In this document: positions 12,513 to 60,332 of the stretch, piece after piece
Position numbering within the stretch: the first letter of the stretch is position 1
How the letters are laid out: every line of letters starts with the position of its first letter
Origin: Heptranchias perlo
Taxonomy: Eukaryota
Reading direction: 5' to 3'
Length of the DNA: 64,000 nucleotides
Assembly: GCF_035084215.1 (NCBI RefSeq)
Contig: NC_090345.1
Location: 33,666,001-33,730,000, forward strand
Notes under the pieces: model-generated
Seen by the model: the letters and a program-made list of their open reading frames with translations, nothing else
Database searches by the model: none
Told to the model about the DNA's origin: nothing
Program-made: the position numbers and the translations under genes

Positions 12513-12680
<168 letters not shown>

Positions 12681-13059
12681 CTACAATAAGATGCATTACA
12701 TTATCTGTCAAGGGTCATTGCTGCGCAACCTATTCTTCGTTATCATTCTTACATTGTTTTCAACAAATGCATCAAAATATTATAGGAAGACAAAGTGCGG
12801 TGAATAACTATGTAAATTTTTTCTGACAGAATTTTACTAAACTTGAAAAAATAGCTATTATAACCTGGTTAACGCTGTCGTCTTTGTCGCACATTAAATA
12901 AATTCCAAGGTTTCTATAGATTTACATATAAATTAATCAACTTCAATAACCTTGCCCTTGAGTGATAAGAAATATTAAGTGCCAAAGTCAATATAATTTG
13001 GATGCATGTATCCCCCCTTGTGTGCTAGTGGTCTTGATAGCCACATAATGACTATTTTA

Positions 13060-13513
13060 AATAAAAACAGAAAATGCTGGAAAAGCTCAGCAAGTGAGAC
13101 AGCATCTGTGAAGAAAGAAACAGTTAACATTTCATCAGAGTTCTGACGAAAGGTCTTTGACCTGAAAGGTTAATTCTGTTTATTTCTCCACAGATGCTGC
13201 ACAATGCAGCAATTTCTTGCAACTCACAGGGAGGTTGAGGGTGAGCTGCCATTTTCGCAAAGCTAACGGCGGAGCGGCACAAATCGTCCAGCAATTTGTG
13301 GCGATTCGCACCTCATGGGGTATCTCTTCCTCACCACAAGTTGCTAGATAATTTACATATTAATAACGGTGAGCGCCATTAAACTCTTTGTTATTTTCCC
13401 AGCAAATTCTGGGCCTATATATCTCCTCAGATGCTGCCTCACTTGCTGAGCTTTTCCAGCATTTTCTGTTTTTATTTCAGATTTCCAACATTTGCAGTAT
13501 TTTGCTTTTGATT
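13060..13513 (+). mobile_element. Short Penelope/retrozyme-like retro-insertion with inverted arms and a hammerhead motif
   Basis: 14-bp direct repeat TAATGACTATTTTA at 13046-13059 and 13514-13527; about 50-bp inverted repeat 13060-13109 vs 13428-13477. Confidence 0.75.
13136..13178 (+). ncRNA. Minimal type-I hammerhead ribozyme-like motif
   Basis: CAGAGTT-CTGACGA-A-AGGTC-TTT-GACCT-GAAA-GG-TT-AATTCTG: stem I 7 bp (one G-U), stem II 5 bp, core boxes intact; activity unknown. Confidence 0.65.
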
Positions 13514-13634
13514 TAATGACTATTTTATACAGTAATGCAACGATCTAGAACAGAACACATAAAACTAGAAATATTGGAGATAATTTTCAATTTTGACGGG
13601 GGGCGGAAAATTGGCGGTAGCAGATCGGCCACCT

Positions 13635-13682
13635 GTCACGCACCCCGCCCGTCACGCACCCCGCCCGTCACGCACCCCGCCC
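13635..13682. repeat. 16-bp tandem repeat x3 inside a small MITE-like element
   Basis: (GTCACGCACCCCGCCC)3. Confidence 0.9.
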
Positions 13683-13793
13683 GAATTTTCTTTCCATTGA
13701 AGTCAATAACCGGCTGGTGGTCCACATGAACATTTCCCCCATAATATCTCCATAACAACTGTAAACAAGATATCACCTAACGTATGTGCTTAC

Positions 13794-13865
13794 CTTTCTT
13801 GCTTTGTACCTCTCATCACATAACAAACTCTCAACCTTAGAGCAAACACCATCTTCCAGAATTTC
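13794..13865 (-). CDS. DNTT: TdT exon 5, 72 nt
   Basis: EILEDGVCSKVESLLCDERYKARK; acceptor ttttcacacag, donor gtaagc. Confidence 0.95.
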
Positions 13866-14277: not shown

Positions 14278-15033
14278 CGGCCAGTTCTTGCTGGAGTGGG
14301 GTATCCCGCGGCGTGCCCCGTTAGTTAGACTTTATCCTTCACCTTTCAGCTCGAAAATCTTTGTGCCGCAAGTTGCTGGAAGTGCGATCTGATAATGGCA
14401 CGGTGAGGGCAACGGGCCATCTGGGACCTTGATAAATGACAAGACCAATAGTGTATCTCCTTAACCAATGAGATTTAAGGATAAAGAAAGAAACAGAGGA
14501 ATGACTGAGAAGGAAATTGGGTGAATTAGAGTCAAATCAGGTACAGAAAGAGAAATAAAGAGAGGGAAATGAAGATTGGATTAAGAGAGAGAAAAAAGAG
14601 ACAGAAAAGGAAAAGTAAGAATTTTTTTAAAAATTTTAGAAATCTCTAAGAACAACTTACTACCTGCAGGAATGAGACTCCACAGTTTCAATTGTTCCCT
14701 TTCTGGGCCGAAGAGTTGAGTGGCATTGTAGGAACATAAATCTCATCATTAAAAGGGTCCTTACACTGTTAAGTACCAGCCCTAACTTTCTGCGGCGAAT
14801 TGAATTCACATTTACCACACAATGCAGCAATTTCTTGAAACTCAGAGGGAGGTTGAGGGTGAGCTGCTATTTTCGCAAGGCTAGCGGCGGAGCAGCTCAA
14901 ATCATCCAGCAATTTGTGGCGATTCGCACCTCATGGGGTATCTCTTCCTCACCACAAGTTGCTGGATGATTTACATATTAATAATGGCAAGCGCCATTAA
15001 ACTCACCACTATTTTCCCAGCAAATTCTGGGCC
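14278..15033. mobile_element. Harbinger-type MITE
   Basis: Imperfect TIRs CGGCCAGTTCTTGCTGG / CCAGCAAATTCTGGGCC with a 3-bp TAT duplication. Confidence 0.75.
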
Positions 15034-15425
15034 TATGTATCTTCCTCTAGAGGCCACCGGCGAATGCAACACTTTTTTTTTAAAGGCGAAGCAGCAGCGT
15101 AAATCACATCAAGGGAATTCCTGGCCTTAGACTTTTACGCCAAGAATTTCCTCGACACTTATCCCACTCCACCGCTGTAACTTCAGCAGAAATTCTATGC
15201 GTTTTGCACCGAATCTCCTGAAGTTACAGCAGCGAAGCCTCGAGGAAACTCTGGCATTGATGTTCATGCGAAATGTTTTGCCCTATCTAGATTTGTGGAG
15301 AGAAATTCATATCAATAAAGGAAATACAAGATCAGTTAAAATCCAATCTTTTCTCCATTTAATGCAGTTGATTTTAAGAAAGTTATAATATACAATATTT
15401 ATTCCAGCGGAAATCACTGTCATCA

Positions 15426-27516: not shown

Positions 27517-28264
27517 CAACTACTGTGGATAGTGACAAGATGTTAGATCTTTCTCTGCTCTTTGCCTGAGAATTCAGCATTCCCCAGAGTCAGGGCAGAG
27601 GGAAAAAAAGGTGAAGACCCGTGATGCCAGGTCTGTGTCGCCATTATATTGCCCTAGAATTTCTTGGGGCTTATCCATGAAGCGCTATTGGTCCTGCACC
27701 TGTAGTAGGACCAGTAGCTACTACAGGTGCAGGACCTGTAGTAGCTACTGGTATTTTAATGAGTGGGGAGGGGCATCCCAGGCCTCTTACCTCATCTCCT
27801 GCTGATTCCTCACAGGATGCCCATAGACACCTGGTGCTATGACCTGCCCCCTATAGGCTCTGCGGGGATCGGCTGCAGTCATAGAAGCAGATACGAAAAT
27901 ACGGAATCTTCATTTAAAGCCCCCCAGGACAATCTGAAGGCCTTGGGGCTTTCTGGTTGCTGCTCTTTGTTTTCTAGGCACACTGCCAAGCTGGGGTTTG
28001 GCCTGTGCCTGGAGTGTGCCCAGGCCATGGAAATGACCAAGGGGAGGAAGAACAAGGGCAGCTGCCTCGTCACAGATGTAGCCCACCTGAGGTGTGCTGT
28101 GGCTGCTGGGAGTCCAGTGGGTACCTTTAGAGGAACCTAATATTTAGCACCAGTGCACTAAAAAGAAAATGAAGCCTCTACCTCCTTACACATTGCTAAA
28201 ACATACCAAAGTCATCAAATCAACAACTAAAAAAAAAATCTAATTATTCTTTGACAAGCTTTAC

Positions 28265-39998: not shown

Positions 39999-40136
39999 AA
40001 ATAGCAAAATACTACAGATGCTGGAAATCTGAAATAAAAATCGAAAAGGCTGGAAACAGTCAGCAGGTCAGGCAGCATGTGTAAAGAGAGGAAGATAGGG
40101 TTAACGTTTCAGTTCAAAGACCCTTCATCGGAGCCC
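39999..40136 (-). mobile_element. Second copy of the hammerhead-motif retro-element
   Basis: Reverse complement reads GGGCT-CCGATGA-AGGGTC-TTT-GAACT-GAAA-CG-TT-AACCC, then the same body as 13428-13510. Confidence 0.7.
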
Positions 40137-46303: not shown

Positions 46304-46478
46304 CTGCAGTCTATGCCGTTCCTCTATATCCACAGGTTTACCAGCACCCATGCTGTCTGTGAACCAGGAGATATCAAGCACCTTAATCTTGTCTGCATTT
46401 GGCAGCTTCTGGTTTTGAATCCAGTCCCAAATCTCATTCCAGGAATTATTCTCTGTCACAATATGTGTGACTGAATCA
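46304..46478 (-). CDS. DNTT: TdT exon 2 (BRCT C-half), 175 nt
   Basis: Not in the ORF track; translated by hand: (S)DSVTHIVTENNSWNEIWDWIQNQKLPNADKIKVLDISWFTDSMGAGKPVDIEERHRLQ. Acceptor ttctttctatag, donor gtacat. Confidence 0.96.
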
Positions 46479-52929: not shown

Positions 52930-53620
52930 CCAGTGTCTTCTCCTCTGTCATTGAGGACATTGCACACTTGAGCATGTTTTTGTACTGCTTCTTCTGCACA
53001 TCCCCTGCCCCCCCACCCCCCTGCCAAAGGAACACGTGCCGATTTTTATCTCACAGAAGAACACTTGTTTCACAAGCCCACTGCCTGGCATTTGAATGAT
53101 GTGACTAGTCCAAATGTCGCTTGGATTTGTCAATGCTAGATATATTGGTTATCTTGTGCAGTTGTGTGTATGGAATTTGTCAAGTTCCTTCACAAGGTAC
53201 CTGTAGCATGCCCAAACCTCACAGATAAACAAAAAGTTGAGAACATTTTTGCATTATAGACGTTCAACTAGGTCTTCAAGGTGACAATTTGCAGATTCCA
53301 TACGTGTTCATGTAAACACTCATGTATTGAATTGAGTGTTCAATTCAATACATGAGTATTGAATTGAACACTTCCTTAATACATGCTTGAACTTCCTGAT
53401 CAATGCATGGATCATTAGAGAGAACACTGCTCAAATAGGCTACCTGAGCCACAGCGGTTGGCCTCATACAATAAGAACTGGAATATAAGGTATTCCCAGT
53501 GGCAGCTGCTACCTGATCTCCGTTTTCTTGAGCCAATGGTGAGGCCATGGCTCTTTGCTGCTGCTGAGATTCTGTCAGTGATCAGCTGAATGTCTTCTTT
53601 GGTGCAAGCCTTTCATTCAC
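52930..53620 (-). mobile_element. Highly decayed RTE-like LINE RT fragment
   Basis: YLSSVLSNDPCIDQEVQACIKE, ...HEHVWN..., SHIIQMPGSGLVKQVFFCEIKIG resemble RTE-clade RT C-terminal motifs. Confidence 0.55.
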
Positions 53621-60235: not shown

Positions 60236-60332
60236 AGATGAAAAGTCATCGACCTGAAACGTTAACTCTATTTCTCTCCACAGATGCTGCCTGACCCGCT
60301 GTGTGTTTCTAGCATGGTCTGTTTTTATTTTT
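60236..60332 (+). mobile_element. Third, 5'-truncated copy of the hammerhead-motif retro-element
   Basis: 12-bp TSD GACTAATGAGGG (60224-60235, 60333-60344); begins aGATGA-AAAGTC-ATC-GACCT-GAAA-CG-TT-AACTCT. Confidence 0.8.

What the first reader, a model, noticed from the sequence alone, without database searches (positions are those of the whole stretch)
13046..13527. Hammerhead-ribozyme-bearing short retro-element (Penelope/retrozyme-like) in DNTT intron 5
Seen: a 454-bp non-coding insert with a 14-bp TSD and ~50-bp inverted arms. It contains CAGAGTT-CTGACGA-A-AGGTC(TTT)GACCT-GAAA-GG-TT-AATTCTG, i.e. stem I, CUGANGA, stem II, GAAA and UH with almost no stem III. A stem-II-deleted mirror motif sits on the other strand (13120-13140). 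Established: Penelope-like elements and metazoan retrozymes carry minimal type-I hammerheads whose short palindromic stem III is thought to work as a dimer, and Penelope insertions often have inverted 5' ends. The other two copies have GAAA-CG-TT (ACGT palindrome), so this copy has a C>G change. Inference: a non-autonomous self-cleaving retro-element family. No RT/GIY-YIG partner is visible in the window, and I cannot say whether the family is already described.
Basis: partly seen in the sequence, partly recalled or inferred. Interest (0 to 1): 0.72.

Follow-up and report, generated by a model that had tools for sequence, protein, structure and literature searches.

The report
Penelope hairpin stub with copied neighbour
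This insert in a gene's intron is two back-to-back end pieces of a known kind of jumping gene (a Penelope-like element), with a hammerhead RNA motif that is predicted to be dead here and a copied patch of nearby DNA, likely picked up as it inserted; it is mostly ordinary, but its relatives' ends hint at how such elements copy themselves.

Summary
In detail: a 454-bp insert, 14-bp TSD, inverted arms and a minimal hammerhead, in the DNTT intron between exons at 13794-13865 and 12557-12680 (minus strand). The interpretation needs correcting. This is not a retrozyme or a separate non-autonomous family. The arms are the hammerhead-bearing end (pLTR) of a 3.1-kb RT + GIY-YIG Penelope-like element of Neptune type, joined head to head, one arm short and one carrying a 37-bp tail. 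That layout is in print. Half the insert (228 bp) is not element: it copies window 14818-15047, 1.6 kb away, and sits inside one arm with a 10-bp duplication. The fold covaries between two families (9 of 11 pairs). This copy is predicted inactive (C15.2G, buried in a hairpin) and is antisense to DNTT. Family data: 53 of 58 inverted pairs join one short and one tailed arm. 5' ends peak about 30 nt upstream of the predicted cut, at an initiator-like site, not at the cut. The scan found such palindromes and local copies before, in other genomes and elsewhere in this one. Interest 0.27.

The parts
13046..13059 (.). Left target-site duplication (14 bp)
13060..13139 (-). Inverted short arm: pLTR end from +67 back to about -30 (0 = first base after the predicted cut), no tail, stem II deleted between two GAAA repeats
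   Evidence: sequence
13139..13175 (+). Minimal type-I hammerhead: stem I 13139-13142/13172-13175, core 13143-13149, extra A 13150, stem II 13151-13163, GAAA 13164-13167; C15.2G at 13168; predicted cut after 13171
13139..13200 (+). Direct arm, first part (-33 to +28); starts at the family's 5'-end hotspot
13191..13200 (+). 10-bp arm segment duplicated around the local copy (second copy 13428-13437)
   Evidence: (D3)
13201..13427 (+). Copy of local DNA 14819-15046: the end of a ~730-bp MITE-like repeat plus about 14 bp of its unique flank
13428..13476 (+). Direct arm resumed (+19 to +67)
13477..13513 (+). 37-bp tail, on this arm only; in full-length elements it is the start of the next unit
13514..13527 (.). 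Right target-site duplication
14818..15047 (+). Source of the copied patch, in the next DNTT intron upstream, same orientation
12557..12680 (-). DNTT exon downstream of the insert
13794..13865 (-). DNTT exon upstream of the insert (boundaries read from AG/GT in the sequence)

Best explanation
The insert is two copies of the hammerhead-bearing end of a 3.1-kb RT/GIY-YIG Penelope-like element, joined head to head between a 14-bp duplication, with a 228-bp copy of neighbouring DNA inside one arm; it is likely one aborted insertion in which both cut DNA ends were extended by reverse transcription. Shown: identity of the arms, the parent element, the short/tail rule, the local origin of the patch, and covariation of the fold. 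Inferred: the endonuclease cut both strands about 14 bp apart; one end was primed at +67 and the other at about +103 of uncleaved element RNA; both copies stopped near -30/-33, probably the RNA's 5' end; the two cDNAs were then joined. Also inferred: the tail-side cDNA jumped to nearby DNA through a loose microhomology, copied 228 nt and returned 10 nt back. The hammerhead belongs to the parent and would work as a dimer or with protein help; in this copy it is predicted inactive and is antisense to DNTT.
For: Parent: the arm lies 3' of the RT-EN frame in 25 of 30 loci; unit about 3.1 kb, partial tandem plus inverted truncated copy in L099; C-x4-C-xx-C linker and C-x2-C inside the GIY-YIG motif; 472 homologues at E<=1e-20, many with RVT_1 or GIY-YIG, best named ones from sharks and rays. 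Two 3' ends: 43 short, 42 tailed, 1 read-through of 86 sampled arms. 53 of 58 classifiable inverted pairs are short+tailed (p 2e-11); 17 of 21 in the position-ordered sample (p 0.004). 5' ends: 25 of 71 at-risk arms stop at -22..-37 (0.022/nt) against 0.001-0.006/nt elsewhere; only 5 of 86 stop at -4..0. TSDs of 9-18 bp, 71% A+T, in 22 of 86. Arms usually share subfamily alleles, far beyond permutation. Patch: best genome match is the local copy (91%, full length; others 85-89%, shorter); 6 shared derived sites against 0-3 for 13 other copies, and it runs past the repeat's end into unique flank; divergence 19/228 vs arm-arm 4/75, not different (p 0.46). Fold: 93.6% of cells paired, 9 of 11 pairs change on both sides. 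In vitro precedent: a lizard PLE protein cuts and extends both strands, starts at two internal RNA sites that bound the tail, and uses uncleaved RNA (PMC11167929).
Against: Every parent copy seen is broken: Pfam RVT_1 and GIY-YIG scores fall below cut-off, and the first scan of four fragments found nothing. No empty site could be shown in relatives. No transcription start was measured. At site +31 the arms disagree in 16 of 57 pairs, against 6% background, and this copy's arms differ by a 2-bp indel; a single identical template does not explain that. A TSD of 9 bp or more was found in only 22 of 86 sampled insertions. The junction palindromes also fit the published self-priming model (PMC3846280). 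The covariation reflects a few family-level events, not many independent ones. No second case of a local copy at a 5' junction was found among 68 insertions examined; one weak 75% hit is probably a repeat.
Confidence: 0.72

Rival explanations
1. Same PLE stub, but the 228-bp patch came later: a break in the fragile palindrome was repaired by copying DNA 1.6 kb away, leaving a 10-bp duplication.
For: The patch sits inside an arm, not at the arm junction, and has its own 10-bp duplication. The left joint has only about 1 nt of microhomology. The dating test has little power (4/75 vs 19/228).
Against: The patch is, if anything, more diverged than the arms, so it is not clearly younger. The right joint lies in a loose ~14-nt resemblance between arm and source (D3, 43). 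Templated pieces during integration are reported for L1.
Confidence: 0.14
2. The inverted arm arises by fold-back self-priming of one cDNA, or of an antisense RNA, at the hammerhead hairpin, not by priming at both cut ends.
For: Proposed for rotifer PLEs from junction palindromes (PMC3846280). Arms mostly share alleles, and junctions cluster in the hairpin region.
Against: A fold-back gives identical arms, yet +31 differs in 16 of 57 pairs. Either arm can hold the more complete hammerhead or the longer 5' part. Here the patch and the stem II deletion are each on one arm only.
Confidence: 0.09
3. One reading: a non-autonomous retrozyme-like family that amplifies as a unit through self-cleaving, perhaps circular, RNA.
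For: Very many short copies (5,929 exact arm hits); 43 of 86 sampled arms end within -43..+11. Retrozymes are argued to derive from pLTRs (bioRxiv 10.64898/2026.07.22.740005).
Against: Junctions are copy-specific. There is a continuous truncation series into the ORF and no tandem array of the short unit in 86 loci. A palindromic transcript buries the hammerhead. Ends fall upstream of the cut, so the template was not cleaved there.
Confidence: 0.04
4. A DNA-transposon MITE with terminal inverted repeats.
For: Inverted arms around a short non-coding core.
Against: TSDs are long and variable (9-18 bp), the ends are asymmetric, and the sequence is linked to an RT frame.
Confidence: 0.01

Closest known systems
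Inverted-pLTR insertions of EN+ Penelope-like elements with a one-sided 30-40-bp tail and TSD (Pen2a_Av, PMC3846280; general scheme, PMC8557442)
   Same: Inverted 5'-truncated arm, tail on one end only, TSD of about 9-15 bp, partial tandems in full copies.
   Different: Both arms are cut back to 80-140 bp, so no ORF is left; one arm holds a local DNA copy.
Minimal hammerheads (min-HHR) of metazoan PLE pLTRs (PMC4209133)
   Same: Short stem I, extra base between positions 9 and 10.1, palindromic 15.2-16.2 and no loop 3; reported for Neptune and Poseidon elements of fishes, mostly as single truncated copies, sometimes in opposite-strand pairs.
   Different: Stem II is 5 bp and opens with A-U before the G-C pair. 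Cartilaginous fishes are not named in the parts I read; supplements were not read.
Poseidon element of the green anole (PMC11167929)
   Same: Two RNA start sites that bound the tail; AT-rich targets; uncleaved RNA as template.
   Different: The family here has the C-x4-C-xx-C linker that Penelope/Poseidon lacks. Pairing of one short with one tailed arm is not stated in the parts I read.
L1 twin priming and templated insertions (PMC11702581; bioRxiv 10.1101/2024.08.27.596794)
   Same: Second priming from the other cut end; pieces of nearby genomic DNA under 250 bp copied into the insertion.
   Different: L1's two cDNAs cover adjacent RNA parts, whereas here both cover the same ~100 nt. L1 templates typically lie within 15 bp; this one is 1.6 kb away.
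Metazoan non-LTR retrozymes (bioRxiv 10.64898/2026.07.22.740005)
   Same: Non-coding, type-I hammerhead, related to pLTRs.
   Different: Retrozymes are head-to-tail tandem units; this is a head-to-head, one-off truncation product.

Membership tests
EN+ Penelope-like element | Single ORF with RT and C-terminal GIY-YIG in the parent | tested here: met
   Pfam hits are in the right order but under cut-off; copies are broken.
EN+ Penelope-like element | pLTR formed by a partial tandem, with the hammerhead in it | tested here: met
   L098-L100; 25 of 30 loci
EN+ Penelope-like element | 30-40-bp tail on one end, inverted truncated copy, variable TSD | tested here: met
EN+ Penelope-like element | CCHH motif with two cysteines between GIY and YIG | tested here: met
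   VYCIRCSQCSLLYTG and downstream His residues in L256; definition from PMC8557442
Neptune (or Nematis) clade | CX2-5CxxC linker between RT and EN | tested here: met
   C-x4-C-xx-C in L061-L063, L256, L258; definition
Neptune (or Nematis) clade | Placement in an RT tree with named reference elements | not testable with these tools
   No Repbase references on hand; the homologues carry no clade names
Minimal type-I hammerhead | Core CUGANGA, GAAA, UH with stems I and II supported by covariation | tested here: met
   (two families, few independent events)
Minimal type-I hammerhead | Palindromic 15.2-16.2 pair in this copy | tested here: not met
   G at 13168; family C. Met for the family: CG 22, GC 17 of 40 distinct rows, but these letters were fixed by my search patterns.
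Minimal type-I hammerhead | Self-cleavage | not testable with these tools
   Needs an in vitro assay
Non-LTR retrozyme | Head-to-tail tandem units, each with a hammerhead | tested here: not met
   None among 86 sampled loci; no genome-wide tandem screen was run
Non-LTR retrozyme | Circular RNA | not testable with these tools
   Only contigs were available; see Tried and rejected
MITE / DNA transposon | Symmetric ends and fixed short TSD | tested here: not met

The most novel reading that the evidence does not exclude
Penelope-like elements prime reverse transcription from both cut ends at once, each end using a different one of two fixed RNA start sites within the first ~135 nt of an uncleaved transcript. 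The mini-palindromes are run-offs at the transcription start, and the growing cDNA can detour onto chromosomal DNA more than a kilobase away and return. This would explain the tail, the inversion and the many stubs with one rule.
Probability: 0.4. Interest if true: 0.55.

Novelty: new member of a known kind. Interest (0 to 1): 0.27.

Why it matters
The copy itself is a fixed-looking fossil with no sign of function. The family matters more. How PLEs form inverted ends and tails, and whether their hammerheads cut in vivo, is open in the papers read. The counts here (one short plus one tailed arm; 5' ends upstream of the cut at an initiator-like site) give exact coordinates for a test with the published in vitro system. 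The genome also holds at least 93,000 exact minimal-hammerhead cores in two pattern classes, a large natural sample of insertion products.

Tried and rejected
Rfam scan of the window: no hammerhead hit at E<=5; minimal forms are evidently not caught. Genome search by family PF26215: not in the library. Pfam on four degenerate fragments: nothing. Folding z-scores of the isolated motifs are weak (-0.7 to -1.8) and were not used as support. Sequencing runs: no RNA holder listed; all runs laid were contigs, so no start, cut site, strand or circle could be read. Empty-site search in other organisms: inconclusive; repeats swamp the joints, and the orthologous contigs stop or diverge at 12974-13014, before the site. 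These runs do show that the element family is abundant in the four runs laid. Search for other locally templated 5' junctions: none convincing in 68 examined. Scripts 12 and 19 crashed; one search printed L001-L024 only, so TSD statements from it cover 24 of 30 loci. Mapping on L100 was dropped because its 3' hammerhead is damaged. Earlier-findings look-ups by sequence and by place were empty. Rejected: retrozyme, MITE, an independent nested transposon for the 228-bp piece (it carries unique local flank), and cleavage of DNTT pre-mRNA (wrong strand).

Full report
1. Observation. The insert 13060-13513 (454 bp) lies between identical 14-mers, with 61-nt arms 92% complementary. The hammerhead motif is as described; the predicted cut follows 13171. 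I number positions from there (0 = 13172). The host gene is DNTT on the minus strand: short-motif scans place exons near 46471, 28315, 15626, 13865-13794, 12680-12557 and 7475, and the 12558-12680 exon hits TdT best. The intact motif is therefore antisense to the pre-mRNA. The genome is 3.25 Gb. The best named homologues of the element protein are from sharks and rays, so a cartilaginous fish is inferred.

2. The family. A DNA search with 13060-13200 gave 2,854 candidates; all 40 scored loci matched on both strands. They are near-palindromes of about 200-245 bp with one short and one tailed arm and a different centre each time (24 of 30 loci printed). A pattern reaching just upstream of the core had 1,105 exact hits, control 0. 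Its loci run upstream for variable lengths into a GIY-YIG C-terminus and then RT. A protein search gave 37,780 candidates; in 25 of 30 fetched loci (one is the query's own) the arm lies directly 3' of the frame. L098-L100 show the whole unit, about 3.1 kb. L099 has the textbook layout: inverted truncated copy, partial tandem, full copy. The tail is simply the start of the next unit. The C-x4-C-xx-C linker points to Neptune/Nematis; no tree was possible. All copies seen are broken.

3. Ends. From the first 100 of 5,929 exact arm hits (position order on one contig) I analysed 86 loci. Seven hits were merged into loci that already held their partner arm, and 7 were left out because they were already held. 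Those 7 were selected for longer 5' extent, so leaving them out inflates the share of short ends slightly. The exact-match rule favours younger copies. 3' ends: 43 at +49..+82, 42 at +93..+110, 1 read-through. 5' ends: 25 of 71 at-risk arms stop at -22..-37, against 8 of 79 and 4 of 46 in the neighbouring bins (p 0.0003 and 0.001); 5 of 86 stop at -4..0, so cleavage can explain a small share at most. Position -33 is the A of CCAGTTC, which fits the initiator consensus YYANWYY (recalled), with TTAAAAA about 28 nt upstream. A second family shows a TATA box upstream of its hammerhead and truncations in the same zone (read by eye). The D. virilis promoter lies in the pLTR but is TATA-less. A start at -33 is inference; an RT stop at the ribozyme's 5' edge fits equally. 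In this copy the arms end at about -30 and -33.

4. Pairing. Of 61 inverted pairs from all loci (this copy included), 58 could be classed: 53 short+tailed, 4 tailed+tailed (all four 200-500 bp apart, perhaps separate events), 1 short+short. Arms share alleles at +12, +34, +42, +43, +45 and -16 far more than permuted pairs. Site +31 differs in 16 of 57 (null 27, background 6%). That is unexplained: two templates from one subfamily, or a mutation hotspot.

5. The patch. 13201-13427 matches 14819-15046 over its full length at 91%; the other 38 scored copies match at 85-89% over a shorter span. It shares 6 derived sites with the local copy (0-3 with each of 13 others) and about 14 bp of flank beyond the repeat's end. 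It is thus copied from the local site and is not an independent transposon. It has the same orientation as its source, so a cDNA growing from the tail end would have used the + strand as template: DNA or an antisense RNA, not DNTT pre-mRNA. Its age is not distinguishable from the arms'.

6. The ribozyme. The core pattern ending ACGTT has 7,705 hits (control 14); the one ending AGCTT has 85,644 (control 4). On 40 distinct rows of both classes, 93.6% of cells pair, 9 of 11 pairs change on both sides, and slid controls give 20-49%. Core and stem III letters were fixed by my patterns, and the changes amount to a few family-level events. Within the family, the common variants sit at N7, the stem II loop and an A-to-G that keeps a G-U pair; several are CpG sites. 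This copy breaks the 15.2-16.2 pair, and its full transcript folds into a long hairpin that absorbs the core (-180.9 kcal/mol, z -12.9). Inactivity is predicted, not tested.

7. Mechanism. Shown: points 1-6. Inferred: staggered double cut; priming of both ends at the two start sites; stop near the RNA 5' end; joining of the cDNAs; a detour onto local DNA. In vitro data on a lizard element support both-strand extension, two start sites and uncleaved template. Self-priming and later repair of the palindrome remain rivals.

8. Known and new. min-HHRs in PLEs, inverted pLTRs with one-sided tails, and templated pieces in L1 insertions are in print. Papers seen: PMC11167929 and PMC4209133, parts 1-2 of 4; bioRxiv 10.64898/2026.07.22.740005, parts 1-2 of 5; passages only of PMC6155905, PMC3846280, PMC8557442, PMC2377424, PMC11702581 and bioRxiv 10.1101/2024.08.27.596794 (73). 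No supplements were read; those of PMC4209133 may list this motif, and Repbase was not searchable. Searches showed no paper on this family, on the short+tailed count or on the 5'-end peak; the library lacks most subscription journals. The scan's own notes hold 269 findings with the same key words in at least 17 genomes, including twin-priming readings and local copies. These are unchecked AI notes, not support.

9. Verdict. A real, ordinary PLE footprint with one uncommon feature; new member of a known kind; interest 0.27.

Noticed in passing
G000 genome-wide; L235-L254; L061:4025-4070: A second, much larger group of PLE-type minimal hammerheads (85,644 exact core hits, control 4) with different stems and an AGCU palindrome; also two 3' ends and many head-to-head pairs. 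It looks younger, so it is better material for the mechanism tests.
   Followed up: partly
window 13060-13134, minus strand: The inverted arm puts a pyrimidine tract plus CAG, an acceptor-like site, on the DNTT sense strand about 425 nt upstream of the real acceptor; the arms would also form a 61-bp dsRNA stem in the pre-mRNA.
   Followed up: no
family positions -25..+101 (window 13147 onward): In copies with T at N7 a short open frame (about 42 codons) starts in the hammerhead core and ends in the tail, as the lizard ORF starts at stem II; two acceptor-like sites (+21, +71) lie in it. The main ORF seems to start further on.
   Followed up: no
family site +31: The G/C variant occurs on several haplotype backgrounds and differs between arms in 16 of 57 pairs; C makes a short perfect inverted repeat (possible quasi-palindrome hotspot).
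   Followed up: partly
window 14303-15037: A ~730-bp MITE-like repeat (5,483 candidates in the genome for its end), source of the patch; family not named.
   Followed up: partly
window 40000-40135 (-) and 60237-60330 (+): Two older single-arm ends of the same PLE group; 60237-60330 is flanked by a repeated 12-mer (GACTAATGAGGG). Both cores are damaged.
   Followed up: partly
window 13629-13683: Three tandem 16-bp GC-rich units inside another repeat in the same intron.
   Followed up: no
window 53298-53385 and 27690-27752: AT-rich perfect-looking palindromes; weak Rfam miRNA matches, all below gathering score.
   Followed up: no
L196 and window 13130-13139: Stem II deleted between the two GAAA repeats in more than one copy, as if RT slipped across the hairpin.
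   Followed up: no
L065 (reverse frame of 324 aa): An open frame that reads like a Harbinger-type transposase (recalled resemblance, not tested).
   Followed up: no
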